Assembly (NCBI GenBank): GCA_973895155.1
Contig: OZ316894.1
Span: forward strand, 13,635,580-13,699,579
Length of the DNA stretch: 64,000 bases
Source: Marsupella aquatica
Lineage: Eukaryota; Plantae; Marchantiophyta
Direction of reading: 5' to 3'
In this document: positions 7,583-61,448 of the stretch, in pieces
How the letters are laid out: each line of letters starts with the position of its first letter
Numbering within the stretch: position 1 is the stretch's first letter
Made by a program: the position numbers and the translations under genes
The notes under the pieces: model-generated
Database searches by the model: none
Seen by the model: the letters and a program-made list of their open reading frames with translations, nothing else
Told to the model about the DNA's origin: nothing

Positions 7583-7583
7583 C

Positions 7584-11700: not shown

Positions 11701-11867
11701 GAGGTGTCCGTATTTAGCAGTATGCGCACTTAGCGCTAGTTTACAAGAGTAAGGTGCATTACGTGCTTCCCTTCCTGCCCGAACCCTCAGATTTACGAGG
11801 GATGGGCCCGTCTAAGCTGAAGTCTGAGTTAAGGCCGCAGCCGATGACGTGACATAGCCTTTGTTTT

Positions 11868-20600: not shown

Positions 20601-21305
20601 CCTCGTTCTTTTTGCCGGGGTGGCTTCATCGTTGACGGCTCCCTTCCTCTTCATCTCTGCTGCCGTGGAGGTTTCTCCTAGCACCGTTGCCTGGGTCCAC
20701 CTTTCCGTGCTACCCTTTAATTCCCAGTGTATGTCGTTGCAGTTCTTGATGGCCTCTCGGATGCCGACGACGCTGTCTTTGCAAAACAGAAGATCGTCGA
20801 GTTGATTGGAAGTAGGCGTCCACAGGAACTCGTCCTTGATGAGTTCGCCTCCTAAGAAAGCCGTCTTCTGCAGCTCCCACAATCGAGCGAGCTCCTGCCG
20901 TTCTCGAGCTGCCCTTTCTGACTCCTCGTCCTCGTAAGTCTTGATGTACTCAGTTGCCCGTTCGAACAGGCATCCCCAGAAATGTGCCGCTTGATTGACG
21001 TTGCTCATACCCTCCTTAGGTTGATCGTCGGTATCTACTCTCTCCCCGAGTGCTTGCCTAAGCAGCTGACAGTAGTTGGCCTCCCGTAGTCGTCTGCCTA
21101 GTTCGTGCTCGCAAATGAGCCACCATCTCCTGCAAGCGCTCCTTACCCCTCTCCTCTGCCGGTCCTTCTTCCCGTTGATCCTTCCTAGCCGCCGACGCTT
21201 AACGCGCCCTAACCCTAATCGGGTTTTCACCCTCAGCCTTACCTCCGGCCTCTGCCCGGGTTCCATGGTTGCCCCTAATTGTTTATATTTTCCTTGTTTT
21301 GTCAC
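17607..21305 (-). pseudogene. LTR-encoded ~1200-aa protein of family C (same core domain plus long coiled coil), one premature TAG at 20556
   Basis: ORFs 20556..21305 and 17607..20468 are in the same frame; the copy at 56250..57614 reads through with Gln. GLEAFVRLPW…EF…TRIYGKDFYLT…VFGL…NGF aligns with the A/B protein. Confidence 0.88.
17738..17873. repeat. 24-bp coding tandem repeat (AEAEAVG[LV]) x ~5.5
   Basis: Directly visible CCCACGGCTTCGGCTTCAGCCAAC units. Confidence 0.9.
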
Positions 21306-22586
21306 TATACTAAGGTGTTCCTAGGGTGCCTTCCTGCTTTACCCACTTAACCGGCCGAGTGATTCCTGTCTAGGCATCACAGAGCCTTACGTTATGATAC
21401 AGGGTCACCTACATAAGGAAGGAGTTAATGGGAAGTTACGACGCTGCTTGGAGTATAAGGAGACGCTTATCGTGATGCGGGCCTTGCATGAAGAAGAAGC
21501 TGGAGGCCATTTCGCGGCGGTCACGACAGCCCGAAAGATTCTGGACTCGGGGTATTGGTGGCCGACGTTGCATCGGGATGTACAGCGCTTCATTAAGGGC
21601 TGTGACCTGTGTCAGCGGGCTGGGGCCCCGAGACGGGCTCATCATCACCCGCTCACATCTATGCTCCCATTGGCACCATTCGAAAAATGGGGAATTGATT
21701 ATATCGGGCCGTTTACTCCCGTTACCCGAAGGCAAAGATGCAGGTACATCCTACTAGCTGTTGATTACTCCACCAAGTGGGTCGAAGCGCGGGCTACGGT
21801 AAAGGACGATGCCGCAACCAGTACCAGATTCTTATACGAACAGATTTTCACCCGATTCGGCCCACCCTTAGAATTGGTAAGCGACCATGGAACCCACTTC
21901 CTCAATGACACCGTAGCCCAGCTTATGAAGCGTTACCTAGTCAAGCACCGCAAGACTACCCCGTATCATCCTAAAGCCAACGGGATGGCGGAGAGAGCAA
22001 ATGGTATCATTGGGAAGATCCTCAACAAAACTGTAGCTGCGCACAAAACGGATTGGGATGATAAGTTGTACGCAGCGGTGTACTCGTATAATCTCGCTTA
22101 CAAAACTACTACGAGTCACAGCCCGTACTTTCTCCTGTTCGGCCAACATTCGTTAGTGCCCGTCGAGTTTGAAGTACACACTCCACGAGTCAGCATTCGG
22201 GATCGCTTACCTGAATCTGAAAGTTTGTCAGACCAAGCTTATCAGATTGAAGCCTTGGAAGAAGCACGGCTACTAGCAGCTCGACACACCGTGAAGAAAC
22301 AGGCAACTTTGAAGAAGCAGCACGACAAAGGACTACGGAGGGTCGACGTCGTGGCAGGCGATCTAGTCCTTCTGTACGATAGTAGGTACATGCAGTTTCC
22401 AGGGAAGCTTCATACCCGGTGGTTAGGGCCCTTCCTTGTCAATCAGATCTACCGTAATGGATCTTTGGAGCTTGCGACGTATGCCGGCGATTTACTCCCC
22501 ACGCGAATCAGCTACGATCGTGTAAAAAAGTACCACCATCAAGATGACGCCGCCGAGAGTGATGTTCACGAGGACGCTTCACAATT

Positions 22587-25500: not shown

Positions 25501-26231
25501 CTTAGTCAGTGAATCTTTGGCGAGAGGACACCCCGTCCCTCGGCCCTTAGTATTTAGTGCACCCCCCGGTAGAGGCAGGGGGGTTTTTAGTTGCAGAGTT
25601 GGGCGTCCGCGGTAGATGCGGGGAGTCCCGACCTCTGGGAATGAAAGAGTACCAAGGGGAGGGGGTAGGACTAAGCTCGTCGGGCGAGTGCGGAGCCGGG
25701 CTCCGTTGTAGTGTGCACCCTCGGCCTTGAACCTGTTCATTCCGGGGCTGTCGGGTCAACTAAGTGTACGCATATGTTCCCTTTGTAGTAAAATCCTTTC
25801 CCATCATTTTCCTTCGTGTAAATCGAGATTGTATGCATGTGCGCGTGTATGTGTGTGGGTTTCTTGTATATGGGTGGCAGCGCCAGGCCGAACGCACTAC
25901 CTGAGACATGCACAGGGTGCAGCCTGCGGGTAAGTGGTTGCGAGCACGGGTTGAGGACCTATATCATCGAATCCGGATCGAAGGCGGATAGCGCGAAGGC
26001 TTAGAAGCCCTTAAGCCGGGGTCGATCCTGCTATCGACTAAGGTACGTTCCGGCGGTGGAACACAAACCATACCTAGGAGGTGTCCGTATTTAGCAGTAT
26101 GCGCACTTAGCGCTAGTTTACAAGAGTAAGGTGCATTACGTGCTTCCCTTCCTGCCCGAACCCTCAGATTTACAAGGGATGTGCCCGTCTAAGCTGAAGT
26201 CTGAGTTAAGGCCGCAGCCAATGACGTGACA
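22600..26231 (+). repeat. 3' LTR of element A (internal ~365-bp deletion at ~24638)
   Basis: Direct repeat of the 5' LTR lacking the equivalent of ~9898-10264. Confidence 0.96.
23067..25336 (+). pseudogene. LTR-encoded protein, A 3' copy (stops at 23583 and 25217, frameshifting deletion)
   Basis: ORFs 23067..23585, 23670..24662 and 24623..25219 align with the 880-aa protein. Confidence 0.9.
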
Positions 26232-37512: not shown

Positions 37513-40500
37513 GGCTTAAGGGCTTCTAAGCCTTCGTGCTGTCCGCCTTCGATCCGGATTCGATGATACAGGTCCTCAACCCGTGCTCGCAACCACTTAC
37601 CCGCAGGCTGCACCCTGTGCACGTCTCGGGTAGTGCGTTCGGCCCGGCGCTGCCACCCATATACGAGAAACCCACACACATATGCGCACACATGCATACA
37701 ATCTCGATTTACACGAAGGAAAAATGATGGGAAAGGATTTTTACTACAAAGGGAACATATGCGTACACTTAGTTGACACGACAGCCCTGAAATGCACAGG
37801 TTCAAGGCCAAGGGTGCACACTACAACGGAGCCCGGCTCCGCACTCGCCCGGCAAGCTTAGTCCTACCCCCTCCCCTTGGTACTCTGTCATTCCCAGAGG
37901 TCGGGACTCCCCGCATGTCCCGCGGATGTCCGACTCTGAAACTAAAAACCCCCCCTGCCTCTACCGAGGGGTGCACTAAATACTAAGAGCCGAGGAATGG
38001 GGCGTCCTCCCGCCAAAGATTCGCTGACCAAGGTCCTAACTAAGCTGACAGTCAGGCCGGAAAACGGCTGTGTCTTATTAGAAGATCCTAATCTACGCAG
38101 GCTGGACAGCAGGGCAGCGCTGCCGTACCTAAGGCAGGTGCCTGTCCCAAGAGCCTGACTAAGCCAATCCTAATCCTAATCTATTCCTACTCCGCCGCTA
38201 ATGCCTGGCACGCTTGCCAGAGCCGCCCGAATGGGAACGGCCATCCCGCTGTCTTCGAAGCCTGTCATTGTCCGCTTTGAGGAGCTGGACCTGGTCCAGC
38301 AGAGATTCGTTCTCTTGCCTCGCCGCGTCCGTCTCCTCTGCTGCCTCCTGACATGCCTCCTCCAGCTGCTGGGCATCGCTCGCCAGTTTACTCGCCAGCT
38401 GGTCCTGCTTCTCGGCCTCGGTTTGGAGCCGCGCCATCTCGGCCTGCAGTGTGGCTATCTCCGTCGCGTCCCGCTGGGCTCGCTCCTCGGCCTCCTCCAG
38501 GTCTTTCTGCCAGGTGACAGCTTGTTTCTTCAAACTGTCAATCTGGTTCCGGAGTCGTGTAATCTCGGCCTCGTTCCCAGCTTTGGCCTGTTCGGCTAGG
38601 GCGGTAAGAGCGTACGCCTTTGCTAACAACTCATCGGCGGCTGCAACCTTGGGTCGTAGTTGCAGAAGTTCAGCCTCTTGAGCCGCCACTTCGTTCTTTA
38701 GGTACACGGACTCCACCCGGTACCGCTCTATCCTCTGAAGGGCCTCCGACTGGGCCCGCCCTGCCTTTACGGCGGCAACCAACTCCTGATTGAAGAAACA
38801 AGCTACCTTCCGAGCCATGAACTCCCCGGTATCCCGGGCAATTTGATGAGAGAAATCTCCTAGAAGCCCGTTCAGAAACGTACCCTGTACGAAGAGTTCC
38901 GGGTGGTCCAAGTTGTGCCTGTCCGGATTTGGGCACGGGCAGACATCAACACGCGCAGGGGCCGGGGCAGTGACGTCCAGCCCTGGGGACATAACGTTGG
39001 AAGGGGCCGGAGTATCCTCCTGCAGCGATGTCCGGTTCTCCGGAATTGCCACCGGCGGGTCCTTGGGAGGCCCGGGTGCGGGTAAGACCTCTGCCGTACC
39101 AACTTCTGTACTTAGCCCGGCTAGTTGGGTCGCATCAACGGTTGCGACGACCGACCCCTCCGGCGCCTCCTCGGTTACGATTACAGCTATTTGTGGAGGT
39201 GGGGTGGGTGAAGCTGGCGTGTCCACTGGACTTCGGGCCTCGGGTTGGGGTCGTCTCTCCAATGCCGGAAAAACCCACCTAGCTGGGACCAGCTTTGTAA
39301 CGTTGATGCGGGGAAGGGTTCGTCGATCAAACCGGGCATACCACTCAAGAATGATTTCGATGTGGCTAGCGAAATACGCCTTCCCGCCAATGTACAGCGT
39401 CTTCCTTCGCCGCTCCATCTCTTCATGGAATTTCTTAGCGAAGTACGACGCCCACTTCCTAGATCGATAGTTCTCGACCTGGATGACCTGGGCGGCGGAG
39501 ATCTCCCCCCGGGGTTCCATCAAGTGGAGAGCGTACCTCTGGAACTCCAGCCGCTCAGCTATCTCGGGCATGAGGCAGGTCCTCATCACGAACCCGTTGT
39601 CTACTGATCCCTCTGAGGGAAAACTTGAAGATTGGTACTTGGCCCCCTTGCCCCCGGGAGCCCGTGATTCGACTCGATGGTCACCTTCGGGTAACCCGAA
39701 GATCATCTTGAGCCGTTCTTCTATGAGGGACATATTCCTTCCCCGCAGCCGAGTCTGTTGACGTACGTCGTCATAATTCTTGACGAATTCTGTCATGTCC
39801 TCCCCGTAGTACCTGCAAGTGTTCCAGGGGAGAGAGGCGAGGTGCTCAAATCCCTGAGTCTTCAGGTACACCGCATGCTTGGGATGGAGGATGTTGTTGT
39901 GAACGTTTTCCCCCATGCGATGCATCGTTACCTTGGCTACGGCTACCGTGGCTAACGGTAACCCGGATGCACTGGCGGATTCCTTTCTCTTCTTTCCCCG
40001 TGACTGACTCGGGGAAGGTGATACTTCCCCATCCTCCCGATCGGGCCTGGGGAGTGCCACTGCGGTTGGTAACGGGCCCGGGGCGGCCACGGTCACCATG
40101 TTGTCTGCTGGGGCCGCTCCTGGGGTCAGAGCAGGGGGTGAGGACGGTATAGTGTCGGCCCCCCGAGCGCTTGTTCCTCTGGGCCGCCTGGTCAAGGGTG
40201 GGGTAGCCTCGTCGTCATCGCTAAGATCCACAGCGTTGATGACGGAGCGTACCTGTGCTGGCTGGGTGATAGGTGGTGGGGTTTGGCTAGGCTGCGGCTG
40301 AGGCTGAAGCTGAAGCTGAGGTTGCATGGGCACGGGTACGGGTACGGGTACGGGTCCGGCTGAGTTGGTCATGTTGGTTGATGGCCGAGTTCCCATGAAG
40401 CTCTGTAGGTGTTGGTAGAAGTTCTCCGAAGCGAGCGCGGACGCCCTTGTCGAACGGTTGGTACTGGACTCGCCGTTAATGACTGCTCGAACCTGGGCAG

Positions 40501-41306
40501 GGATGTGGTCGAAGTGATGTCGCTGCAGGTCGATTGTACCCGGGATATTGAAGACCTCGTCCGGAAGCCGAAGCAATGCTTCCCAGAACCCGATATATTT
40601 GTCTCCGTCAAAGAAGTACCCAGATACCTCAGCTGGTCGGTAAAGCTCGCTCTAAGACGGGTAGTCAAAGTTAAGGACGTAGTGGTGTCGTCCTGCTAGG
40701 CGGATGGCTCTCTCGTATTCGCGTTCGATCTCGTATCGGCGCGGGTTGGCGTGTTTCAATGAATCGGCCAAGTGCCTTCCGGTAGATAGGAACTGCGTCC
40801 AGAATCGAATGGCCGAGCTGGAGAGGATCGTGTGCGACATTCAGAGGAGATAGTAGTGGCGACCTAGAGAGAACGAGAGAGCTGGGGTCGAAGCTGGCGC
40901 GCGGACTGATGGACTGGTGCACTACAAAGGGTTGGCTCCCCTTTTATACTTTGAGGGCTTGTCGATCCCCGACGTCTCCTCGACGCCCATAGGTTGAACC
41001 GCTCATGCTTGTGGTGTACCGGCCACTCCGCCGGTCTGAGTCAGCGTGCGTCAGTGGCCGCTTCCTTAAGTTCGTTATACGGACCCGAGGGAGGGGCCCC
41101 TCCATGCTCATAACCCGGGTGTGCGAATAGCGACCCGCCGCCAGCCCGAACCTGAAGTCCCCCTTATTGCCTAATGATGTCCTACCCCTAATGATTACCT
41201 AAATACTATCGTTATGCTAATAATAGCGGCCTAAGACCCACCTAACGTGCGTGCCGAGCGCAGTTAGACTGAATCACTCATTAACCGCCGTACCGGCGGC
41301 GTCACA
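37513..41306 (-). repeat. 3' LTR of B (terminal ~215 bp missing)
   Basis: Near-identical to ~47601..51397. Confidence 0.95.
38198..40840 (-). pseudogene. LTR-encoded protein, B 3' copy (single premature TAG at 40652)
   Basis: ORFs 40652..40840 and 38198..40576 together match the 880-aa protein. Confidence 0.92.
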
Positions 41307-44300
41307 TAGCTCCCTGCTTAATTGTGAAGCGTCCTCGCGAACATCGCTATCGGCGTCGTCATCTTGATGGTGGTACTTTTTTACACGATCGTAGCTGATT
41401 CGCGTGGGGAGTAAATCGCCGGCATACGTCGCAAGCTCCAAAGATCCGTTTCGGTAGATCTGATTGACAAGGAAGGGCCCCAACCACCGGGTATGCAGCT
41501 TCCCTGGAAACTGCATGTACCTACTATCGTACAGAAGGACTAGATCGCCTGCCACAACGTCGACCCTCCGTAGTCCTTTGTCGTGCTGCTTCTTCGAAGT
41601 TGCCTGTTTCTTCACGGTGTGTCGAGCTGCCAGTAGCCGTGCTTCTTCCAAGGCTTCAATCTGATAAGCTCGGTCTGACAGACTTTCAGATTCAGGTAAG
41701 CGATCCCGAATGCTGACCCGTGGAGTGTGCACTTCAAATTCGACGGGCACCAACGAATGTTGGCCGAACACCAGAAAGTACGGGCTATGACTCGTAGTAG
41801 TTTTGTAAGCTAGATTATACGAGTACACCGCCGCGTACAACTTATCATCCCAATCCATTTTGTGCGCAACTACAGTTTTGTTGAGGATCTTCCCAATGAT
41901 ACCATTTGCTCTCTCCGCCATCCCGTTGGCTTTAGGATGATATGGGGTAGTCTTGCGGTGCTTGACTAGGTAACGCTCCGTAAGCTGGGCTACGGTGTCA
42001 TTGAGGAAGTGGGTTCCACGGTCGCTTACCAATTCTAAGGGCGGTCCGAATCGGGTGAAAATCTGTTCGTATAAGAATCTGGCACTGGTTGCGGCGTCGT
42101 CCTTTACCGTAGCCCGCGCTTCGACCCATTTGGTGGAGTAATCAATAGCTAATAGGATGTATCTGCACCTTCGCCTTTGGGTAACGGGAGTGAACGGTCC
42201 GATATAATCAATTCCCCATTTTTCGAATGGTGCCAATGGAAGCACAGATGTGAGCGGGTGATGATGAGCCCGCCTCGGGGCCCCCGCTCGCTGACACAAG
42301 TCACAGCCCTTAATGAAGCGCTGTACATCCCGATGCAACGTAGGCCACCAATACCCCGAGTCCAGAATCTTTCGGGCTGTCGTAACTGCCGCGAAATGGC
42401 CTCCAGCTTCTTCTTCATGCAGGGCCCGTATCACGATAAGTGTCTCCTTATACTCTAAGCAGCGTCGTAACTTTCCGTTAATACCTTCCTTATGTAGGTG
42501 ACCCTGTATCATGACGTAAGGCCCGGCTTTCCGTAAAAACACAGCGGCGGCCTCCTGATTGATGCCGTCAGGGATGCGGCCCGTTAAAAGGAAGGTGATT
42601 ATTGAGCCGTACCACGTTGGTGTCCCTTCCCCTACGTGGAACAACTCCTCATCCGGAAAAATATCATCAATTGGCTGATCGACTGGTACGCCGTCCAGTC
42701 GTGAAAAGAAATCGGCATTGAGGTGTACCCTTCCTGGCCGAACCCGAACTTCGTAATTAAATTCCTGGAGAAGTAGCACCCACCGGGCTATCCGTCCTGT
42801 CACATCCGCTTTGTTGACCATGTACTTCAGGCTATCATGATCCGTGTGGAAAATGACCTTGTAGCCTAGCAGATAGTGTCGGAACTTTTTACACGAGTAG
42901 ATTATTCCCAAAGCTTCTCGATCAGTGGGGGAATAATTCTTTTCGGCTGCAAATAGTTGACGGCTAGCGAAATAGATGGGGTGATCACGTCCATCCTCAT
43001 CTAGCTAACTAAGTACGGATCCGATACAGAACCCTGACACATCAACATACACGTGGAACTCCTTATTCCAGTCTGGGGTGACCATGATAGGCGCGGTGGT
43101 GAGTCGTTTACGGAGTTCCTCAAAAGCAATCCGTCTCCGGGGTGTTTCCTCGACCGCTGCGTCCTTCTTCATCATCTCAGTTAAGGGCAACGCAATTTTA
43201 GCAAAGTCTTTAATGAACCGGCGGTAATACCCTACGCAGCCCAAGAAGGATCGTACTGCTTTTTGATCCAAGGGGAACACCACCGCCATCCAGGCCGCAA
43301 CTTTCTCTTGGTCCACCTCAATGCCCCGTTTAGACACACGATGCCCGAGTAACACCCCCTCCTCTACCCCGAAGAAGCATTGGCGGGATGTAGTTTGAGG
43401 TTAACATCTCGGCATCGTTGCAACGTTCGTCGTAGGTGTTCGGGGTGCATGGCAACGGTTCCGAAGATAGCAAAGTCATTGATAAATATCTCCAAAAATT
43501 CCCGTAGGAAATCGTGGAAGATATTCATCATAAGGCGCTGAAACATAGCCGGGGGCGTTACACAGACCAAAAGGCATCCTCCGAAATGCGAACGTTCCCC
43601 ACTCCGTAGTGAACGTTGTTTTGAGCTGATCCGCGAGACGAATCCAGATTTGGTTATAACCTGAATACCCGTCAAGAAATGTATAGATTTCATTTCGGGC
43701 CACCATATCTAGAACCATATCCGTGAATGGTAATGGGTAATGGTCTTTTCGGGTTGCGTCATTCAGCTTACGGTAGTCCTGACAGATACGAATCTTAGGT
43801 TTTCCATCCGTACCTCCCTTCTTTGGTACAATGACAATGGGAGAGACCCAGTCGCTGGCCATTACCGGGTAAATGATATCGGCGGCGAGGAGACGATCAA
43901 TTTCCTCCTTCACTAAGATGGAGTACCTCGGATTCATGCGACGTTGTCGCTGTCGTACCGCATGGGCTCCTAGGTTCAGATCGATTGTGTGTTCTCCCAA
44001 CTCGGGGGAGACGCCTGTTAAATCATGATGACTCCATGCAAACACATCTTCATATTCCTTGAGCAAAGCTTGGATGGCTTTTTCAGCCTTCCCCGTCAAA
44101 GCGTGGCCCAGGTTAAAAGATTTGTCCATCCCAATAGTGTACTTCCGGTAGTGCTCCTTCCTGATGACTTCAACCTGGTTTCGCAGACTCGGGTCCAGGC
44201 TCGCGTCAAGCTCAGCTAACCGAACCCCTCTGTACATGGGTGGGACCGGGATTGGTCTCGGGATGGGGTTTACTTCCTCCAATTGCGGAATGGACGGATC

Positions 44301-47264
44301 CCATGAGACTCGCTTTTTATGTCTCGGTCTCGAGTTTTCGGCCTCAGGCGGTTGTTGGGCTGGTTCATGGTTACAAGGCTCTGAAATGGAAGGAGTAGCC
44401 ACGGCTCCCTGCTTGGCTGGAGCCGTGTCCTCCGTCTCGACGAGTTGTTCGTGCGTTTCCTCATCCCCGACAGTAGATGTACTTGGGGTGGACTCAATGG
44501 CAGCCCTCGGGTAATTTAGGAGATGTGTTTCTCGGGTTGCTTCAACTCCGAAGACATCTTCCTCGGATAGGGACGAGATGAGTTCGATCATATTGAGTTC
44601 CTCTTCCTCCGAGGTCTCCGAATCATATTCCTCGGGTCCTTGTGGGGTTTCTCCCTGATAATCGTCCATTGCCCAGGATACCCGTACGGTGGGTTCCCCG
44701 AACCGTAGCTCCTTCTTTCCCCAATCCGTGACTACACGGCCACCGTACAGCCACGGCCTGCCCAGAAGAACCGGATAAGAGGAGGGACGAACCGGCCTCA
44801 TGACTAAGAAGTTGAGATAGAACTCTACCCCTCCCACCAGAGTGAGCACTCGTGTGAGCGTGCCTAATGGGAGGACCCTTGCCCCGTTTGCTAATCTGAT
44901 AGCTCGGGCCGTGGGTTGATACGTGAGGTATCCTAACTTGACTGACGTTTCTTCAGTCATGATGTTGACTCCCGCTCCTCCGTCTACAAGGACCATCTTG
45001 ATGGTACAGTTATTAATTTCGATCGAGATGTCCGGCGCTCCAAGGTCCTCGCATATCATGTTGCAGTCCGCACTCCCAACTTGGGGTAGTCTTCTCCTTC
45101 GGCGACCCATGAGCAACTCCCTCAGTTGTCGTCTGTACTATGGGTTATTCTGCAGCAGTTGCCCCACCGTTGCTGTAACCGGGCAACTCTTCACGTCCTC
45201 CTTAATATCATAGTCCTCCTTTGTTTCTTTCGTTGGCTGCTGCTTGGCTTCCTCTTGTTTATCTTGCTTTTCTTGCTCCTGACGCCGGGCTGTCTCGGCT
45301 GCTTTGATGTCCTTATCGATTGCCTTCTGGTATTCCCGAGCTTCGTAAGCCTCCAGCTGTTTCTTTACCAATTCTTCGATGCGGGGGAAAAATAGCTTCG
45401 GGTCGTCCCGTCGGTAGTCATCGTCCTTTTCTGGGGGTATATTTATCGCTGGCTGCACTGGAGTAGTATCTTGCTTTTTCCTCCGTTTCTCCTCCGTCTT
45501 TTCTTCCTTCCGTTCGGCCCTTGTCGACACTCGGTAGCACTCGGCCTCATCCAATGGATTAGGGTGTTCCGCCACGTCCACCAGATTCACCCACTCGGTG
45601 TTGTCATCTTGCCATTCTACAGCAATCATTTGGACGACTGCATCGCTCGTGACTGGTCCAGCCTGGGCCGGTCTAGCCGCACTCGTTCGAGCAGCGATTA
45701 CCAACGGACAGTTGGCCGTGGAATGAGCCTCCGTTTTGCAAACTTGACATAGTGGGGTGCCTCGGCCATCTCCCTGACGTCTTGGTTCGGTGCATTCCCT
45801 CGCAAAGTGTCCTGGCTTTTCACAGTTGTAACAAACCGGGGACCGCCAAATCCCTGGCTTAGGAGGGATGCTCGGGTTACTGATAACCTGGAAACTCCGG
45901 CCATTACTTGGGTAGGGGTACGCAGTTCTACCCGCTAAATTACGCGGACCAACCGTTGAAATCTGGTACACGGAGTCAGGAGGGTCCTCAAAGAAATACT
46001 CCGTGGACTCCGATTCGGGGCCCGGGTTGTCAACATCATCCAGCTCTACTTGGTGAACTCGGTTCTTCCACCTTGGGCATTCCTGCACCACATGGCCGGA
46101 TTGGAAGCACTTTGAACACCACGCATGGGCTCGAATCTCAGATGGCTTCTTCTTCTCCACCGGCTTCTCCGCAAGATGTACTGACAGTGCTTTGAGTCGA
46201 TCCGTGATTTCGTTCAGCTTGTCTGCTTCGGCAGCCTTTGGATCTGGTATCGTTCTTCGCGCCCGGGGTTTAATCTTCCCCTCCTTCTTCACTCGTCTCT
46301 TCTTCTTTTTGCTCCGGCTTTCGCTCTCCAAGTCACTTCCTGATGAACTGGAGGTAGAGGATCCGATGCTTGAAGCTGAATCCGAACTGGATTCCGTCTC
46401 GGAGCTGGACGAGGTCGAACGATGTTTCTTCTTCTTCTTCCGTTTCTTCTTCCTCTCGTCGTCCGATTCGGAGTCACTGTCACTGAAGGTTTCGTACTTA
46501 CCCTTCCTGTGGCGTGCTCGCTGGCTCCGCCGGGAGTTATAGGTGGACTCCCGGTAAGTTTCGGCGCACGCTATGGCTGCCTGCATTGAAATTGGATTAT
46601 TCTGGCGTACCCAGAATTGCATATTCGTGGGCAAACCATGAAGGAACCATGTAAGCTGGAGCGCGTCTCCTGGCCTGGGCCGGATCTTGGCCGCAAGTTT
46701 CTGAAACTTCTGAATGAACTTCCGCAGGGACTCTTTTTTTCCCATGCGAAGCTGGCCAATCTTTAATAGAGAACGTTGTTCTGATCCAATGGCACGAAAC
46801 TCCTGCAGCAATGCAGCTTGGAATTGTGCCCAGGTAGTCCCGGGTGGTAACGAGTTGTACCATGGACGAGCTTCTCCCCGCATTACTCCCGGGAGGACGG
46901 TTAGCTTAATGGCGTCTTCCCCATTAGCTTTAGCAGTGGCTTCAAACTCATCCAACCATTCATCCGGATCATCCCCATGACGCCCTTTGAAAGGTCGATA
47001 ATGAAATCGCGATCGTTGCGATATTTGTGGAGGCGCCTGAGCAGCGCGGGCCACCGGTGGAGCGGCTGCCATAGGTGGTGGTGGTGGTGGTGGAACCGCA
47101 GCAGGGCCGGTCGAACCGGACCCCGAAGATCCCGGGGGTATGTTCATACGTCGGGACGATTGCGAGTCCTCCGAGCCTGACGAGTCGGAGCTTGTTGTGG
47201 TTGCACTTTCTCGTTCGCTGGTCAATCTCCTCAAGTAAGCTGCTTGAGAACGAGTGACGGGCAT
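41274..47264 (-). pseudogene. gag-pol: gag-pol of element B (originally one frame; stops at 45138 and 43005, 1-nt indels near 43550 and 43380)
   Basis: Same domain motifs as A; comparison with A restores a continuous ORF. Confidence 0.96.
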
Positions 47265-47358: not shown

Positions 47359-47375
47359 CCCTCCATCTAGCGCCA
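47359..47375 (-). promoter_or_regulatory. Primer binding site of B (tRNA-Asn-like), 12 nt from LTR end
   Basis: Identical to the PBS of A. Confidence 0.7.
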
Positions 47376-47387
47376 AAACAAAGGCTA

Positions 47388-50300
47388 TGTCACGTCGTAG
47401 GCTTCGGCCTTAACTCAAACTTCAGCTTAGACGGGCACATCCCTCGTAAATCTGAGGGTTCGGGCAGGAAGGGAAGCACGTAATGCACCTTATTCTCGTA
47501 AACTAGCGCTAAGTGCGCATACTGCTAAATACGGACACCTCCTAGGTATGGTTTGTGTTCCGCCGCCGGAACGTACCTTAGTCGATAGCAGGATCGACCC
47601 CGACTTAAGGGCTTCTAAGCCTTCGTGCTGTCCGCCTTCGATCCGGATTCGATGATACAGGTCCTCAACCCGTGCTCGCAACCACTTACCCGCAGGCTGC
47701 ACCCTGTGCACGTCTCGGGTAGTGCGTTCGGCCCGGCGCTGCCACCCATATACGAGAAACCCACACACATATGCGCACACATGCATACAATCTCGATTTA
47801 CACGAAGGAAAAATGATGGGAAAGGATTTTTACTACAAAGGGAACATATGCGTACACTTAGTTGACACGACAGCCCTGGAATGCACAGGTTCAAGGCCAA
47901 GGGTGCACACTACAACGGAGCCCGGCTCCGCACTCGCCCGGCAAGCTTAGTCCTACCCCCTCCCCTTGGTACTCTATCATTCCCAGAGGTCGGGACTCCC
48001 CGCATGTCCCGCAGATGTCCGACTCTGAAACTAAAAACCCCCCCCCTGCCTCTACCGAGGGGTGCACTAAATACTAAGAGCCGAGGAACGGGGCGTCCTC
48101 CCGCCGAAGATTCGCTGACCAAGGTCCTAACTAAGCTGACAGTCAGGCCGGAAAACGGCTGTGTCTTATTAGAAGATCCTAATCTACGCAGGCTGGACAG
48201 CAGGGCAGCGCTGCCGTACCTAAGGCAGGTGCCTGTCCCAAGAGCCTGACTAAGCCAATCCTAATCCTAATCTATTCCTACTCCGCCGCTAATGCCTGGC
48301 ACGCTTGCCAGAGCCGCCCGAATGGGAACGGCCATCCCGCTGTCTTCGAAGCCTGTCATTGTCCGCTTTGAGGAGCTGGACCTGGTCCAGCAGAGATTCG
48401 TTCTCTCGCCTCACCGCGTCCGTCTCCTCTACTGCCTCCTGACATGCCTCCTCCAGCTGCTGGGCATCGCTCGCCAGTTTACTCGCCAGCTGGTCCTGCT
48501 TCTCGGCCTCGGTTTGGAGCCGCGCCATCTCGGCCTGCAGTGTGGCTATCTCCGTCGCGTCCCGCTGGGCTCGCTCCTCGGCCTCCTCCAGGTCTTTCTG
48601 CCAGGTGACAGCTTGTTTCTTCAAACTGTCAATCTGGTTCCGGAGTCGTGTAATCTTGGCCTCGTTCCGAGCTTTGGCCTGTTCGGCTAGGGCGGTAAGA
48701 GCGTACGCCTTTGCTAACAACTCATCGGCGGCTGCAACCTTGGGTCGTAGTTGCAGAAGTTCAGCCTCTTGAGCCGCCACTTCGTTCTTTAGGTACACAG
48801 ACTCCACCCAGTACCGCTCTATCCTCTGAAGGGCCTCCGACTGGGCCCGTCCTGCCTTTACGGCGGCAACCAACTCCTGATTGAAGAAACAGGCTACCTT
48901 CCGAGCCATGAACTCCCCGGTATCCCGGGCAATTTGATGAGAGAAATCTCCCAGAAGCCCGTTCAGAAACGTACCCTGTACGAAGAGTTCTGGGTGGTCC
49001 AAGTTGTGCCTGTCCGGATTTGGGCACGGGCAGACATCAACACGCGCAGGGTCCGGGGCAGTGACGTCCAGCCCTGGGGACATAACGTTGGAAGGGGCCG
49101 GAGTATCCTCCTGCAGCGATGTCCGGTTCTCCGGAATTGCCACCGGCGGGTCCTTGGGAGGCCCGGGTGCGGGTAAGACCTCTGCCGTACCAACTTCTGT
49201 ACTTAGCCCGGCTAGTTGGGTCGCATCAACGGTTGCGATGACCGACCCCTCCGGCGCCTCCTCGGTTACGATTACAGCTATTTGTGGAGGTGGGGTGGGT
49301 GAAGCTGGCGTGTCCACTGGACTTCGGGCCTCATGTTGGGGTCGTCTCTCCAATGCCGGAAAAACCCACCTAGCTGGGACCAGCTTTGTAACGTTGATGC
49401 GGGGAAGGGTTCGTCGATCAAACCGGGCATACCACTCAAGAATGATTTCGATGTGGCTAGCGAAATACGCCTTCCCGCCAATGTACAGCGTCTTCCTTCG
49501 CCGCTCCATCTCTTCATGGAATTTCTTAGCGAAGTACGACGCCCACTTCCTAGGTCGATAGTTCTCGACCTGGATGACCTGGGCGGCGGAGATCTCCCCC
49601 CGGGGTTCCATCAAGTGGAGAGCGTACCTCTGGAACTCCAGCCGCTCAGCTATCTCGGGCATGAGGCAGGTCCTCATCACGAACCCGTTGTCTACTGATC
49701 CCTCTGAGGGAAAACTTGAAGATTGGTACTTGGCCCCCTTGCCCCCGGGAGCCCGTGATTCGACTCGATGGTCACCTTCGAGTAACCCGAAGATCATCTT
49801 GAGCCGTTCTTCTATGAGGGACATATTCCTTCCCCGCAGCCGAGTCTGTTGACGTACGTCGTCATAATTCTTGACGAATTCTATCATGTCCTCCCCGTAG
49901 TACCTGCAAGTGTTCCAGGGGAGAGAGGCGAGGTGCTCAAATCCCTGAGTCTTCAGGTACACCGCATGCTTGGGATGGAGGATGTTGCTGTGAACGTTTT
50001 CCCCCATGCGATGCATCGTTACCTTGGCTACGGCTACCATGGCTAACGGTAACCCGGATGCACTGGCGGATTCCTTTCTCTTCTTTCCCCGTGACTGACT
50101 CGGGGAAGGTGATACTTCCCCATCCTCCCGATCGGGCCTGGGGAGTGCCACTGCGGTTGGTAACGGGCCCGGGGCGGCCACGGTCACCATGTTGTCTGCT
50201 GGGGCCGCTCCTGGGGTCAGAGCAGGGGGTGAGGACGGTATAGTGTCGGCCCCCCGAGCGCTTGTTCCTCTGGGCCGCCTGGTCAAGGGTGGGGTAGCCT

Positions 50301-51397
50301 CGTCGTCATCGCTAAGATCCACAGCGTTGATGACGGAGCGTACCTGTGCTGGCTGGGTGATAGGTGGTGGGGTTTGGCTAGGCTGCGGCTGAGGCTGAAG
50401 CTGAAGCTGAGGTTGCATGGGCACGGGTACGGGTACGGGTACGGGTCCGGCTGAGTTGGTCATGTTGGTTGATGGCCGAGTTCCCATGAAGCTCTGTAGG
50501 TGCTGGTAGAAGTTCTCCGAAGCGAGCGCGGACGCCCTTGTCGAACGGTTGGTACTGGACTCGCCGTTAATGACTGCCCGAACCTGGGCAGGGATGTGGT
50601 CGAAGTGATGTCGCTGCAGGTCGATTGTACCCGGGATATTGAAGACCTCGTCCGGAAGCCGAAGCAATGCTTCCCAGAACCCGATATATTTGTCTCCGTC
50701 AAAGAAGTACCCAGATACCTCAGCTGGTCGGTAAAGCTCGCTCTGAGACGGGTAGTCAAAGTTAAGGACGTAGTGGTGTCGTCCTGCTAGGCGGATGGCT
50801 CTCTCGTATTCGCGTTCGATCTCGTATCGGCGCGGGTTGGCGTGTTTCAATGAATCGGCCAAGTGCCTTCCGGTAGATAGGAACTGCGTCCAGAATCGAA
50901 TGGCCGAGCTGGAGAGGATCGTGTGCGACATTCAGAGGAGATAGTAGTGGCGACCTAGAGAGAACGAGAGAGTTGGGGTCGAAGCTGGCGCGCGGACTGA
51001 TGGACTGGTGCACTACAAAGGGTTGGCTCCCCTTTTATACTTTGAGGGCTTGTCGATCCCCGACGTCTCCTCGACGCCCATAGGTTGAACCGCTCACGCT
51101 TGTGGTGTACCGGCCACTCCGCCGGTCTGAGTCAGCGTGCGTCAGTGGCCGCTTCCTTAAGTTCGTTATACGGACCCGAGGGAGGGGCCCCTCCATGCTC
51201 ATAACCCGGGTGTGCGAATAGCGACCCGCCGCCAGCCCGAACCTGAAGTCCCCCTTATTGCCTAATGATGTCCTACCCCTAATGATTACCTAAATACTGT
51301 CGTTATGCTAATAATAGCGGCCTAAGACCCACCTAACGCGCGTGCCGAGCGCAGTTAGACTGAATCACTCATTAACCGCCGTACCGGCGGCGTCACA
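47388..51397 (-). repeat. 5' LTR of B (4010 bp, intact)
   Basis: TGTGACG…CGTGACA on the minus strand. Confidence 0.96.
48289..50931 (-). CDS. Intact 880-aa LTR-encoded protein: N-terminal globular region, Pro/Gln linker, NLS, plant-transposon-protein-like domain, C-terminal coiled coil
   Basis: Uninterrupted ATG ORF wholly inside the LTR. GFEHLASLPW…EFVKNY…TRLRGRNMSL…IFGL core; GKKRK; heptad-rich last ~200 aa. Confidence 0.92.
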   Translation of the reverse strand: MSHTILSSSAIRFWTQFLSTGRHLADSLKHANPRRYEIEREYERAIRLAGRHHYVLNFDYPSQSELYRPAEVSGYFFDGDKYIGFWEALLRLPDEVFNIPGTIDLQRHHFDHIPAQVRAVINGESSTNRSTRASALASENFYQHLQSFMGTRPSTNMTNSAGPVPVPVPVPMQPQLQLQPQPQPSQTPPPITQPAQVRSVINAVDLSDDDEATPPLTRRPRGTSARGADTIPSSPPALTPGAAPADNMVTVAAPGPLPTAVALPRPDREDGEVSPSPSQSRGKKRKESASASGLPLAMVAVAKVTMHRMGENVHSNILHPKHAVYLKTQGFEHLASLPWNTCRYYGEDMIEFVKNYDDVRQQTRLRGRNMSLIEERLKMIFGLLEGDHRVESRAPGGKGAKYQSSSFPSEGSVDNGFVMRTCLMPEIAERLEFQRYALHLMEPRGEISAAQVIQVENYRPRKWASYFAKKFHEEMERRRKTLYIGGKAYFASHIEIILEWYARFDRRTLPRINVTKLVPARWVFPALERRPQHEARSPVDTPASPTPPPQIAVIVTEEAPEGSVIATVDATQLAGLSTEVGTAEVLPAPGPPKDPPVAIPENRTSLQEDTPAPSNVMSPGLDVTAPDPARVDVCPCPNPDRHNLDHPELFVQGTFLNGLLGDFSHQIARDTGEFMARKVACFFNQELVAAVKAGRAQSEALQRIERYWVESVYLKNEVAAQEAELLQLRPKVAAADELLAKAYALTALAEQAKARNEAKITRLRNQIDSLKKQAVTWQKDLEEAEERAQRDATEIATLQAEMARLQTEAEKQDQLASKLASDAQQLEEACQEAVEETDAVRRENESLLDQVQLLKADNDRLRRQRDGRSHSGGSGKRARH

Positions 51398-55849: not shown

Positions 55850-58105
55850 GTTCCTCCTCCGGCTTCCAGGCTGTCTTCTCCCTCTATTTACCGCGAACAA
55901 GAGCTTTAGGCTGCTCTTCCTCAGCTTTGGGACTCGAGGCTCCTACATACATTTGAACCCCCAGCTCGTGTTCCGGCCTCCTTCTTTCCTTGGTTTTGGT
56001 AAAGGGGTTTTCCCTCATGAGTCGGCTTAGGCCAACTTTTGGGGCAATGTCCTGTACCGGTGCCATTGTCGTTGCCGTTGTCGTCCTCTTCTCCTTCTCC
56101 AGCAATTTCAGCAGATTCTGCATGCCTGGTTGCTGCATCGGCAAGTCTTTTGTCCTTGGCCTAAACACCTGCTCGATCATAGGACTGTCGGGCTGGTTGG
56201 GTTTCTCTGCTGCCGGCCTCTGTTGCAAAACCTCCTCTGGTGCCCTTGCCTATAGGGGAAGTACCGGGGCAAAGATCTGACTCCGGGCATACCTGCACAA
56301 CAACGGCATGTGATAGCCAAGCCGGGACACGCTTCCCTTGCCAATCACTTGCTGTTTCTCCTTCAAGATCTTCTTCAATTGGGTGAGGAGGTACCCATTG
56401 TAATCCCAGCTTGGGTCTGGCCTCTCCGCCAGGTAGACCTGTGCCTTGCCAATCTCTGGCCTCGGCAAGTTACAATGCATGGTTACCCGCAAGAAATCGA
56501 TCATCTCTTCGATGTGCGGGTTGGTGCAGGTGTTCCAAAAGAAGCCATTCTTTGTTGATGGCCCTGGGAACGACCGCAACTCCTTGTCAGGCAAGGTCTT
56601 CCTGGTATCTACTTTGGTCTTATTGCCCATTGGCAAGCCAAACGCTTTGGCAATCACCCGGGGAGTGAGATAGAAATCCTTCCCATACACCCTTGTGGAA
56701 TTGGTTTTAGGCTCCCATGATCCCACAAATTCTAATAAGTCTGAATCCGGCACCTCCAGCTTCAGCCATGGTAATTTCATGAAGGCTTCCAAGCCGGATC
56801 CGCCCATGAAGCCCTGGTACTTCCGAGTTTGCATAGCTATAAAGCATGCATCCTCTTCACGTGCAAAGTGTAATTGCACTTCCTCGAGGAGGGTCGCCGC
56901 CCAGCCTTTCCAGGTGTCATCCCTGGTTGGAATGGCATTGATGGGGTCAACCTCCTCTTTTTTGGCTTTGTCCTGCCTCCTGCTTCCCTGCTCGGCTAGC
57001 TTCCTTGGTGCCGCCAACCTCGTTCTCTTCGCAGGGGTGGCCTCTTTGTTGTTGGCCCCTTTCCTCTTCATAGCGGCTGCCGTGGATGTTTCTCCGAGCA
57101 CGGTTGCCTTTGTCCACCCCTCCGTGCTACCCTTCAACTCCCAGTGTATGTCGTTGCAGCGGTTGATGGCTTCCCGGATGCCAACGATTTTGTTCTCGCA
57201 AAACAAAAGGTTGTCTAGCTCGTCGCCAGTAGGTGTCCACAGGAATTCAGCCTTGATGAGTTCTCCTCCTAAGAAGGCAAACTTCTGTAGCTCCCACAGT
57301 TGAGCGAGCTCCTGCCGTTCGCGAGCTGCTCTTTCCAATTCTTTGTCCTCGTAGGTCCCAATGTACTCAGTTGCCCATTCGAACAAGCATCCCCAAAAAT
57401 GAGCAGCTTGATTGACGTTGCTCATACCCTTCTTGAGTTGATAGTCGGTATCTGCTCCCGCCCAGAGTGCTTGCCTAAGCAGTTGACAGTAGTTGGTTTC
57501 ACGTAGTTGTCTGCTTAGTTTGTGCTTGCAAATGAGCCACCATTCCTTGCGATCGGTCCTTACCCCCCTCCTGTCTGGTCTTCCTTCCCGTTGGTTACCC
57601 ATAGCCGCCGGCACTTAGCGCACCCTAACCCTAATCGTGTTCCCTGTCGGGGCGTCCTTACTTCCGGCCTCGGCCCGGGTTCCATAGTCACCCTTAATTG
57701 TTTATATTTTCCTTGTTTTGTTACTATACTAATGTGTTTCCAGGGCACACTCTTCATTTTACCATTTAAACTAGCCTAGTGATTCCTTGACAGTAGTTGG
57801 TTTCACGTAGTTGTCTGCTTAGTTTGTGCTTGCAAATGAGCCACCATTCCTTGTGATCGGTCCTTATCCCCTCCTGCCTGGTCTTCCTTCCCGTTGGTTA
57901 CCCATAGCCGCCGGCACTTAGTGCGCCCTAACCCTAATCGTGTTCCTTGCCGGGGCGTCCTTACTTCCGGCCTCGGCCCGGGTTCCATAGTCACCCTTAA
58001 TTGTTTATATTCTCCTTGTTTTTGTTACTATACTAATGTGTTTCCAGGGTACACTCCTGATTTTACCATTTAAACTGGCCTAGTGATTCCTGGCTAGGCA
58101 TCACA
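55850..58105 (-). mobile_element. Truncated second family-C LTR (5' half) with degenerate ORF
   Basis: Homologous to ~19450..21381; ends …TAGGCATCACA at 58105; ORFs 56250..57614 and 55884..56228. Left boundary approximate. Confidence 0.9.
57484..58091. repeat. 304-bp tandem duplication of the C-LTR promoter region
   Basis: 57484-57787 is repeated at 57788-58091; both copies contain the minus-strand AATATAAAC. Confidence 0.92.
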
Positions 58106-60176: not shown

Positions 60177-61448
60177 GGCCAAGAACTCTTTGGGGCTCAG
60201 TAAGAAGAGGAAGGCATTGGCCCCAACAAGTTGTCTTCCTATGGCTTTGTTGATTGTGGCAGATTTGGGTATCTATTGCATGGGGGAGGATGTTAAGAGG
60301 TAAGTTACACACCTCCCATGCAGCTCTACCTCCAGACTCGTGGCTTTAGTCATTTAGCAACACAATCTTTGAACGCATGTTGCCATGACACCAAGGATAT
60401 GGTGGAGTTGGAATCCAAAAGGATGACCTAGTTTAGTTCTTTGGGGCCCTTTTTGGGTCTAAGCAGAGCCTGATTGAAGTCCATCTTTGGCTTGCTTGAG
60501 GGTCCCATCAAGTTACAGTCACAAATTCAGATGCAAAAGGGAGAGAAATAACACTCTGACAACTTCAAGGCAGTTGCTCAGTCCAATAACGACTTCATTT
60601 TGAAGGGGTGTAGGACATGTACCACTCATAGGCAATTCAAGTTCCATAGGTACACCTTGCACTTGGAGACGTGGATGGAGACCTCGGGTAATTGTAACGT
60701 GCGAGCAAACAGTAGAATTTTTGCTCGCACGGGCAAGATTTCACCTTGTGTTGGGGCCCCAAAAAGGTCTGGAATATTCCTCGCTAGCATGGAGACCCTG
60801 TTCGATCAGTAAATAATGACGGCTACCTATGGACGATTCTAGTCCCGTGAACGCACTAGATCCATTTCCGACCAATCAAAATGACATTTCTTCAGGCCAG
60901 CAAAATCGCTAGTCTAATGACGCCAACACATTGAGCCACTCAAACGAGGTACGGTCTCCACGTACAGGCTTCCACATGTGAAAATTCCCACCCGAGGAAG
61001 AGTAATAACGAAAAAGTACTGTGCAATTCCCACGTGACAAGAATCAACGTGTCATTACTGTCGAGGAAAGGAAAATTAAGGCCATTTGGACACTAATTAA
61101 GTCACTTGCAAGTGAACGAGACACTTACCGTTCGAACCAGAGGCGAATCCAAGGCGGCGAACCGTCCACTTAAACAAAGCCGCTCACCCAAAAACCACCA
61201 GTCTTCCGAATCATTCTCCCGATCACTTCCACCGCGTCCGACTCGAGCTCTTTCATTCGGAACTGCTATCAGTGTTCCAAGTACTCGAGATCCAGACCAG
61301 GTAAGCACGGGACTATGGTTCTGAGCTGTTTTTAGAGAATCACTCTCCGACAAGGCATGACATTCATCGTATTTCATCATGAATAGTGTTTCCATTTATT
61401 GAATGTCGTTCTTCTTAATCACTGTTTGGGTTTTGTAAGTGCAGAGAA

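What the first reader, a model, noticed from the sequence alone, without database searches (positions are those of the whole stretch)
47388..51397. A complete 880-aa gene lies inside the LTR, so each element carries it twice
Seen: two thirds of the 4010-bp LTR is one sense ORF with a TATA box just upstream. It is present in all four A/B LTRs and intact here. Established: extra ORFs of Athila/Tat/Ogre normally lie in the internal region; LTR-internal genes are best known from animal retroviruses (MMTV sag). By eye the core resembles the putative plant transposon protein/Transposase_28-32/PMD group plus a coiled coil, and PMD-family MAIL1/MAIN proteins are linked to TE silencing control. Inference: a nuclear accessory factor (anti-silencing or targeting) that survives LTR-LTR recombination, making each solo LTR a potential expression cassette.
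Basis: partly seen in the sequence, partly recalled or inferred. Interest (0 to 1): 0.88.

Follow-up and report, generated by a model that had tools for sequence, protein, structure and literature searches.

The report
Anti-silencing-like gene inside retrotransposon LTRs
A plant jumping gene, likely from a liverwort, carries a large, selection-maintained gene inside its own terminal repeats, and its protein is predicted to fold like the silencing-evasion protein VANC21, so even a leftover single repeat could hold a gene that likely helps the family escape host silencing.

Summary
Confirmed and extended. The 4010-bp LTR of a Ty3/gypsy element holds an intact 880-codon sense ORF (66% of the LTR), 108 nt behind the LTR's only TATA-box match. 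It lies in all four LTRs of elements A and B and is broken in three. It is under purifying selection (dN/dS 0.25-0.33; gag 0.14). A second family in the window carries a homologue (27% identity in the core) inside a 4.7-kb solo LTR (dN/dS 0.23). The core domain folds confidently (pLDDT 88.5). Its only clear structural match is VANC21, the DNA-binding anti-silencing protein of VANDAL transposons (Z 8.0; next 2.4 of 48,161 chains), a fold published as homologous to the plant mobile domain (PMD). Named homologues are from the liverwort Calypogeia fissa. Best reading: a VANC/PMD-fold nuclear DNA-binding factor that likely keeps its family active. Function and expression are untested, the fold match is moderate, and no repeated target motif was found. 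PMD-like extra ORFs of Ty3 elements and MMTV sag are known; this fold inside a plant LTR was not found in my searches. This scan reported LTR-internal genes before on other genomes, none noted with this fold.

The parts
47388..51397 (-). 5' LTR of element B, 4010 bp, TG...CA
48289..50931 (-). Intact 880-codon ORF inside the LTR (LTR nt 467-3109)
   Evidence: selection
51032..51039 (-). TATA-box match TATAAAAG at LTR nt 359, present in all four A/B LTRs; the ORF ATG is the first ATG behind it
   Evidence: promoter function inferred
50542..50931 (-). N-terminal helical domain, aa 1-130, conserved in homologues, no clear fold match
49372..50040 (-). Core domain, aa 298-520, predicted VANC21/PMD-like fold; basic cluster KKRK at aa 283 just before it
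48322..48834 (-). Predicted coiled coil, about aa 700-870, followed by a basic C-terminal tail
   Evidence: sub-cut-off coiled-coil Pfam hits; conserved in P0039
47786..47914 (-). U-rich/UGUA patch (LTR nt 3484-3612), candidate polyadenylation region; a similar patch lies at the same distance from the LTR end in family C
   Evidence: function inferred, significance not tested
47360..47375 (-). PBS-like sequence 12 nt behind the LTR; identical in element A
41274..47264 (-). gag-PR-RT-RH-IN of element B, broken by an in-frame stop at the gag end and a 1-bp frameshift in RT; the integrase frame ends 33 nt inside the 3' LTR
37515..41306 (-). 3' LTR of element B, last 216 bp missing; ORF copy 40840-38198 with nonsense at codon 63
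6346..11854 (+). 5' LTR of element A; ORF copy split by a 1514-bp TG...CA insertion (7306-8819), with nonsense at codon 196
22600..26231 (+). 3' LTR of element A; ORF copy with about 367-bp deletion and nonsense at codon 842
16686..21381 (-). Solo LTR of a second family (C), 4696 bp, TSD GAGCC, inserted in A's integrase; holds a homologous 1219-codon frame (21266-17607, 78% of the LTR) with one stop at codon 237
55875..58105 (-). Second, truncated copy of the family-C LTR (C', 82% identical) with the homologous ORF, stop at codon 478
60187..60701 (+). Decayed relic of a third homologue of the core domain; no LTR bounds established

Best explanation
This is an accessory gene built into the LTR of a plant Ty3/gypsy retrotransposon, kept by purifying selection in two families, whose protein is predicted to carry a VANC21/plant-mobile-domain fold and likely binds its own family's DNA in the nucleus to keep those copies from being silenced. 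Shown: the gene lies inside the LTR, is selected, and passes intact or nearly so into solo LTRs. Predicted: the core fold, and a coiled coil that would dimerise the protein. Inferred steps: (1) the TATA box at LTR nt 359 starts an RNA whose first AUG is this gene and which would end at a U-rich patch near nt 3500-3600, so one LTR alone would be a complete transcription unit; (2) the protein enters the nucleus through basic clusters; (3) the core would recognise a short motif in the non-coding parts of the LTR and counter DNA methylation or Polycomb marks in trans, as VANC and MAIN/MAIL1 do; (4) because full-length copies carry two LTRs and recombination leaves one, gene and target would amplify together. 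Selection acts in the replicating lineage; most inserted copies decay.
For: Position, size and intactness. dN/dS B vs A 0.29, 0.33, 0.27, 0.25, upper 95% bounds 0.42-0.53, against 0.135 for gag and 0.128 for integrase. Context-preserving null: z -2.0, -4.8, -4.2, -3.9, and -6.0 for C vs C'. Second family with the same domain order in a solo LTR with TSD; its end is a sharp boundary in 4 of 4 runs, with mixed flanks, and in one run the majority flank matches the A/B PBS at 19 of 20 positions. 37 homologue clusters at E<=0.001; P0039 aligns end to end, 30% identity. AlphaFold2 core pLDDT 88.5, pTM 0.85, no templates. Foldseek top hit VANC21-DNA 9lnj, E 8.4e-3, probability 0.99, TM 0.49, next hit E 1.6. 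VIA-align Z 8.0, rmsd 4.1, 209 residues aligned, next Z 2.4, only 3 of 48,161 chains at Z>=2; Z 8.3 in the second look. Core net charge positive in 15 of 17 near-complete cores, highest Kyte-Doolittle window 1.26 so no membrane helix, basic clusters present. Non-coding LTR parts differ by only 5.6-5.8% between A and B while synonymous sites differ by 15-19%. Literature passages: VANC binds short motifs and hypomethylates its own family (PMC5735166); VANC is structurally homologous to MAIN and VANC21 is predicted to dimerise by a coiled coil (PMC13547354); MAIN/MAIL1 counter Polycomb silencing and PMD-A is retrotransposon-encoded (10.1101/2024.09.27.615353); PRC2 represses TEs in bryophytes (10.1101/2022.10.24.513474, abstract).
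Against: The fold match is moderate: Foldseek E is above 0.001, identity 9-11%, rmsd about 4 A, and Z 8 sits at the level that the tool calls middling; a shared fold shows no function. No Pfam PMD, DUF1985, ATHILA or Transposase_32 hit at cut-off: 0 of 29 alignment members, best 1 of 29 at E 0.059; a profile search of PDB sequences did not return VANC21 at E<=5. VANC targets are repeated motifs, but no 7- or 8-mer was enriched in the non-coding LTR parts of B or C against shuffles, and no tandem array lies there; only CCGCCG (4 of 200 shuffles) and one local 9-mer (7 of 200) came near, uncorrected for several tests. 6 of 7 copies in the window are broken; B 5' vs B 3' is neutral (15 non-synonymous changes vs 16.0 expected). 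The four A-B comparisons are not independent. In family C the in-frame ATG at LTR nt 116 is only 21 nt behind the TATA match, so the promoter layout is not identical. The same fold in host MAIN/MAIL1 was first linked to silencing, not its relief (PMC5418596).
Confidence: 0.5

Rival explanations
1. The same DNA-binding fold is used for integration targeting or nuclear delivery: the protein would bind the LTR ends of the cDNA or host chromatin and tether the integration complex.
For: The integrase has no chromodomain hit; the window is a dense nest of elements, with C inserted in A; a DNA-binding fold plus coiled coil suits tethering; nuclear roles in the pre-integration complex have been proposed for extra ORFs (PMC7264820, sections read).
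Against: The only solved relative is an anti-silencing factor. A targeting factor gains nothing from being expressible from solo LTRs. Target-site duplications here are unrelated (GTCCT, GAGCC).
Confidence: 0.2
2. It is a regulator of the element's own transcription or RNA fate (a trans-activator, a copy-number brake, or a switch between the short LTR-only RNA and the full-length RNA), not a chromatin anti-silencer.
For: It would be the first cistron of an RNA started at nt 359-395, with gag 3.7 kb further on; a TACTAAC branch-point-like motif in the gag leader is kept in A and B, and a pyrimidine tract ending in AG lies 24 nt before the ORF in three of four LTRs. No repeated target motif was found.
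Against: No RNA-binding fold was detected in either domain. The splice-like motifs are short and untested.
Confidence: 0.2
3. A captured host or transposon PMD-like gene that rides in the LTR and is kept only weakly or historically, with no present role.
For: Most copies are broken; selection is weaker than on gag (non-synonymous deficit about 22-35% vs 49%).
Against: Purifying selection in two families whose proteins are only 27% identical in the core; 37 homologue clusters with a conserved domain order; weaker constraint is usual for accessory TE proteins (PMC13547354).
Confidence: 0.07
4. The 4-kb repeat is not an LTR but a separate element or duplication flanking gag-pol, so the gene is an ordinary internal extra ORF.
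For: B's 3' copy is truncated and B has no testable TSD; the polypurine tract is short.
Against: A has TG...CA ends, a 5-bp TSD and a PBS behind the 5' copy; C is a solo copy with TSD whose end is followed by the same PBS in other copies.
Confidence: 0.02

Closest known systems
VANC21 of VANDAL21 (Mutator-like DNA transposon, Arabidopsis); PDB 9lnj/9lnk; PMC5735166 (passages)
   Same: Predicted core fold (Z 8.0-8.3, 205-209 residues aligned); TE-encoded accessory gene; coiled coil beside the core; variable linkers around a conserved domain.
   Different: Retrotransposon, not DNA transposon; gene inside the LTR; about 10% identity; likely liverwort host whereas VANC is described as dicot-specific (PMC13547354); no repeated target motif found; activity untested.
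Plant mobile domain: PMD-A extra ORFs of Ty3/gypsy elements (57% of Ogre elements, PMC6317226) and host MAIN/MAIL1 (PMC5418596; 10.1101/2024.09.27.615353)
   Same: Extra ORF of a non-chromovirus Ty3 element; fold linked through VANC by published structural comparisons.
   Different: No PF10536 hit; position inside the LTR; PMDs were surveyed in angiosperms in the passages read. No PMD structure could be compared directly here.
ATHILA ORF-1 (PF03078) / Transposase_32 (PF20167) extra ORFs of Athila elements (PMC6317226, PMC11728184)
   Same: Sense extra ORF with predicted nuclear signals; weak hints: Atlas feature scores 0.84 and 0.83 for homologue P0011, hhalign score 26.6 over 40 columns, one Pfam hit at E 0.059.
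   Different: Those lie between pol and the 3' LTR (166 of 167 ATHILA ORF-1 hits are 3'F in the supplement row seen); all hints here are below thresholds.
MMTV sag (PMC4667437, passages)
   Same: Gene mostly within the LTR, several promoters including one inside the LTR, mostly preserved in solo LTRs (490 of 527 contigs in that study).
   Different: Animal retrovirus; sag is a superantigen in U3; no relation to this protein was tested or is expected; here the gene fills 66-78% of a 4-4.7-kb LTR and may lie in R rather than U3.
Retrosat2/RIRE3/RIRE8 ORF0, Grande gene23, Retand extra ORFs (PMC3485330 passages; PMC7264820 sections)
   Same: Large LTRs or extra ORFs under selection, some nuclear, one with its own promoter.
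   Different: Described as upstream of gag-pol or between pol and the 3' LTR, not inside the LTR.

Membership tests
Ty3/gypsy LTR retrotransposon | Two LTRs with TG...CA, TSD, PBS, and PR-RT-RH-IN order | tested here: met
   (TSD shown for element A; B's 3' end is truncated)
Tat clade (Ogre, Retand, TatI-III) | Additional archaeal-type RNase H (PMC6317226) | tested here: not met
   RH runs directly into integrase and no second RNase H hit in A, B or the close relative P0058
Phygy / Selgy | 4-bp TSD, short elements, no extra ORF (supplement) | tested here: not met
   5-bp TSD, about 14 kb, extra ORF; the fully coding internal region does resemble them
Athila clade | No aRH, 5-bp TSD | tested here: met
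Athila clade | RT/RH/IN phylogenetic placement | not tested
   No labelled reference set was at hand; RT-RH is 53-57% identical to Riccia sorocarpa proteins and 36-50% to angiosperm ones among 120 listed hits
VANC anti-silencing proteins | VANC (DUF1985) fold | tested here: met
   Predicted model only; sole match at Z>=5 of 48,161 chains, Z 8.0, rmsd 4.1; moderate strength
VANC anti-silencing proteins | Sequence membership (DUF1985 or similarity to VANC21) | tested here: not met
   No such Pfam hit for ORF880 or 31 homologues; VANC21 not returned by the profile search of PDB sequences
VANC anti-silencing proteins | Encoded by a VANDAL/Mutator DNA transposon | tested here: not met
   Encoded in a Ty3 LTR
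VANC anti-silencing proteins | Repeated short target motifs in the element's non-coding DNA | tested here: inconclusive
   No clear enrichment in 1367 nt (B) or 1036 nt (C); a motif in 2-4 copies would not be seen
VANC anti-silencing proteins | Sequence-specific DNA binding and hypomethylation in trans | not testable with these tools
   Needs bench work
Plant mobile domain (PF10536) | Pfam PMD match | tested here: not met
Plant mobile domain (PF10536) | PMD fold | tested here: inconclusive
   Indirect only, through VANC; no library of predicted cellular structures on hand
Transposase_32 / ATHILA ORF-1 | Pfam match at curated cut-off | tested here: not met
   Best 1 of 29 members at E 0.059; leads only
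env-like extra ORF | Transmembrane helix | tested here: not met
   Highest 19-residue Kyte-Doolittle mean 1.26 in ORF880, 0.88-1.26 in three homologues

The most novel reading that the evidence does not exclude
Liverwort Ty3 retrotransposons have moved a VANC-type sequence-specific anti-silencing gene into the LTR itself, between its promoter and its poly(A) site, so that gene, promoter and target are one unit. Solo LTRs, normally the host's way of disarming an element, would then stay behind as trans-acting anti-silencing cassettes that keep the family active, and the VANC/PMD fold would be an ancient retrotransposon weapon older than the angiosperm VANC and MAIN genes.
Probability: 0.3. Interest if true: 0.92.

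Novelty: new variant of a known kind. Interest (0 to 1): 0.78.

Why it matters
Sequence-specific anti-silencing is established, in the papers I read, only for VANDAL DNA transposons, and the function of the thousands of extra ORFs of plant Ty3 elements is open. Here an extra ORF has a predicted fold that points to a mechanism and can be tested directly (DAP-seq, methylome and H3K27me3 profiling in Marchantia). Its place inside the LTR means that LTR-LTR recombination removes gag-pol but keeps this gene. It also bears on the open question of whether PMD/VANC arose in hosts or in retrotransposons (PMC5418596, PMC13547354): a divergent, selected family in likely liverwort elements favours an old retrotransposon history. 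Annotation pipelines treat LTRs as non-coding and would miss or mis-call such genes; the Calypogeia homologues are filed as unnamed host proteins.

Tried and rejected
No whole genome is held, so no genome-wide copy census. Word-indexed search with aa 280-540 found nothing among 905 candidates; the alignment search found 3 of 7995. Expression: no RNA holder listed; all laid runs are contigs, so neither start sites nor splicing could be seen. Summed contig depth over the ORF part of the LTR was about 3-8 times that over most internal bins in runs X1 and X2, which would fit many solo LTRs, but the tool states that depth is no copy number, so I do not use it. N-terminal domain: no fold match (Foldseek best E 3.4; VIA best Z 5.7 among generic helical rows); inconclusive. 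Viral structure library: best E 3.6e-3 with TM 0.22 and rmsd 18.8, rejected. Bacterial promoter scan irrelevant. Motif enrichment negative. Metagenome scan with RT-RH gave 13 loci; 1 of 13 (L006) holds a core homologue, whose place relative to an LTR could not be fixed. TG...CA/TSD search around the relic at 60187 gave only chance-level candidates. The Atlas could not read the window protein; the result is for homologue P0011 and is below 0.9, a lead only. The VANC21 structure paper (10.1266/ggs.25-00096) and PMC9016345 are not held, so DNA-contacting residues could not be compared. No complex prediction was sent. No RT tree was built. Correction to notebook entry 1: the duplication flanking the 1514-bp insertion is 4 bp (GTAC), not 5. 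Pfam scan of unrelated flanking ORFs was left undone.
Full report
1. Observation. Self-comparison shows two related Ty3/gypsy elements. Element B (- strand) has a 5' LTR at 51397-47388 (4010 bp, TG...CA), a PBS-like sequence 12 nt behind it, gag, PR-RT-RH and IN, and a 3' LTR at 41306-37515 that is 99.1% identical but lacks its last 216 bp. Element A (+ strand, 6346-26231) has the same LTR at both ends and a 5-bp TSD. The ORF 50931-48289 encodes 880 aa in sense and fills LTR nt 467-3109, 65.9%; 300 shuffles of the LTR gave at most 303 stop-free codons. The LTR's only TATA[AT]A[AT] match is at nt 359, in all four LTRs, and the ORF start is the first ATG behind it. The ORF is intact in 1 of the 4 A/B LTRs.

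2. Selection. Nei-Gojobori dN/dS between B and the four pieces of the A copies is 0.29, 0.33, 0.27 and 0.25; gag gives 0.135, integrase 0.128, PR-RT 0.18. This method is biased low by transitions, so I relocated each substitution to a random site of the same trinucleotide context: observed non-synonymous changes were 20, 89, 54 and 20 against 25.5, 115.7, 73.7 and 30.5 expected, and third codon positions carry about twice the changes in the two long pieces. The comparisons share the B copy and are not independent. The two LTRs of B, which diverged after insertion (0.85%), show no selection (15 vs 16.0). So the gene is selected in the replicating lineage and decays after insertion.

3. A second family, outside the given coordinates. 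The 4696-bp insertion in A's integrase (16686-21381) has TG...CA ends and a GAGCC TSD and holds a 1219-codon frame with one stop. It is 27% identical to ORF880 in the core and also aligns in the N-terminal domain. A truncated second copy (55875-58105, 82% identical) gives dN/dS 0.23, z -6.0. In 4 of 4 public runs, contig cover stops sharply at 16686, flanks are mixed, and in run X2 the majority flank of 35 contigs matches the A/B PBS at 19 of 20 positions, at low agreement (0.38) as expected for a mixture. C is therefore the solo LTR of another family with the same gene in the same place. A decayed third homologue lies at 60187-60701. In all, 1 of 7 copies in the window is intact.

4. Homologues and host. 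A full scan of 1.84 billion representatives gave 37 clusters at E<=0.001; none of the 31 scanned has a Pfam family at cut-off. P0039 (906 aa) aligns end to end: N-domain, Pro-rich linker, core, linker, coiled coil, basic tail. Of 17 homologues looked up, 5 carry an organism name, all the liverwort Calypogeia fissa, as do two more. Among 120 listed RT-RH hits (of 6333, long proteins only), named ones are closest in Riccia sorocarpa (53-57%) against 36-50% in angiosperms; unnamed ones reach 74%. A liverwort host is likely, not shown. The element lacks an extra RNase H and a chromodomain hit, and has 5-bp TSDs, which excludes Tat, Phygy and Selgy as defined in PMC6317226 (passages and supplement table); its lineage was not placed on a tree.

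5. Fold. AlphaFold2 on a 29-sequence alignment gave pLDDT 88.5 and pTM 0.85 for aa 295-530, without templates. Foldseek's top PDB hit is VANC21 bound to DNA (9lnj, released December 2025), E 8.4e-3, probability 0.99, TM 0.49; the next hit has E 1.6. An independent search of 48,161 chains gave VANC21 at Z 8.0, rmsd 4.1 A, 209 residues, the next at Z 2.4; the second look gave Z 8.3. The match covers the whole domain and stands far above the rest, but its absolute level is moderate and identity is about 10%. Sequence-level hints point the same way but are weak: Atlas feature neighbours of homologue P0011 include Transposase_32 (0.84) and ATHILA (0.83) clusters; hhalign against three Transposase_32 pieces scored 26.6 over 40 columns against at most 15.8 in 20 column shuffles; 1 of 29 members hits Transposase_32 at E 0.059. 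The N-terminal domain folds (pLDDT 82) without a clear match. There is no membrane helix, and the core is net basic in 15 of 17 near-complete homologues.

6. How it most likely works. VANC21 binds a 9-bp motif and removes methylation across its own transposon family (PMC5735166, passages). VANC is structurally homologous to MAIN and is predicted to dimerise through a coiled coil (PMC13547354, passages). MAIN/MAIL1 counter Polycomb silencing at motif-bearing genes, and PMD-A is retrotransposon-encoded (10.1101/2024.09.27.615353, passages; PMC5418596, passages). PRC2 represses TEs in bryophytes (10.1101/2022.10.24.513474, abstract). I therefore infer a nuclear, dimeric DNA-binding factor that protects its own family from silencing (confidence 0.5). 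The anatomy suggests each LTR is a full transcription unit: TATA, first AUG, ORF, then a U-rich/UGUA patch 400-540 nt before the LTR end in both B and C; this is inference from motifs. Whether the gene is in a very long R (one promoter) or in U3 (second promoter near the 3' end, as for sag) is open. Against the VANC analogy: no enriched motif or tandem array in the non-coding LTR, no sequence-level family match, and mostly broken copies. Rivals are integration targeting (0.2), control of the element's transcription or RNA (0.2), a passenger gene (0.07) and a mis-called LTR (0.02).

7. Comparison and novelty. Known: extra ORFs of plant Ty3 elements in the internal region, including PMD in 57% of Ogre, Transposase_28 in 23% of Retand and ATHILA ORF-1 in 16% of Athila elements (PMC6317226; PMC7264820, first two of three parts read; PMC3485330 and PMC11728184, passages); and an LTR-internal gene preserved in solo LTRs in MMTV (PMC4667437, passages). 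It works like VANC by predicted fold, but is not a VANC family member by sequence or by element type. Four full-text searches for LTR-internal ORFs in retrotransposons and three for VANC/PMD in retrotransposons returned no report of this arrangement in plants; one hit was a false phrase match (PMC1560396), and PMC12885004 and PMC12859917 (passages) did not bear on it. The library lacks most subscription journals, including the 2011 Genetica survey (seen only as a citation) and the VANC21 structure paper. The 2019 survey classes extra ORFs as upstream or downstream of pol, did not mention liverworts in its main text, and I read only one of its five held supplements in full, so LTR-internal cases could be hidden there. 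This scan noted LTR-internal genes before in moss, fungal-type and flatworm elements (unchecked AI notes, not support); none matched this sequence or the words VANC fold.

8. Verdict. New variant of a known kind; interest 0.78.

Noticed in passing
window 50932-51397 and 47388-48288: The non-coding parts of the LTR differ by only 5.6-5.8% between A and B, about one third of the synonymous distance (15-19%), so they are as constrained as the protein.
   Followed up: partly
window 47265-47300 and 50950-50980 (- strand): A TACTAAC branch-point-like motif in the gag leader of both A and B, and a pyrimidine tract ending in AG 24 nt before the ORF start in three of four LTRs; possible splice routes, untested.
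   Followed up: no
L006 5059-7856: A distant Ty3 element (RT-RH 39% identical) has a broken core-domain homologue (own HMM E 1.3e-6) starting about 450-500 nt after integrase, in sense, followed by coiled-coil-like frames and lacking the N-terminal domain; LTR status unknown.
   Followed up: partly
window 7306-8819: 1514-bp TG...CA insertion with a 4-bp duplication inside the ORF's hexamer repeat; holds a 14/28-bp tandem array at 8447-8735; probably a solo LTR of a third family.
   Followed up: no
window 33519-37237 (-) and 62541-63998 (-): Long ORFs without Pfam hits that show, by eye and from recalled motifs, GCM-like and SWIM-like Cys/His patterns; likely a Mutator-related element in two copies. 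B's 3' LTR is cut off just upstream at 37515.
   Followed up: no
window 28464-30981 (-): Frames that look by eye like a LINE ORF1 with zinc knuckle and an endonuclease start.
   Followed up: no
window 52231-55058 (+): Fragmented frames that look by eye like a CACTA-type transposase region; element B is inserted just upstream.
   Followed up: no
window 57483-58091: 304-bp tandem duplication at the 5' end of the C' LTR.
   Followed up: no
window 16928-16955 vs 47543-47571: A 29-nt stretch around TTCCGGCGGCGGAA is shared by the otherwise unalignable 3' parts of the B and C LTRs; a candidate conserved cis element.
   Followed up: no
window 41274-41306: The integrase frame of A and B ends 33 nt inside the 3' LTR and the polypurine tract is short.
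   Followed up: no
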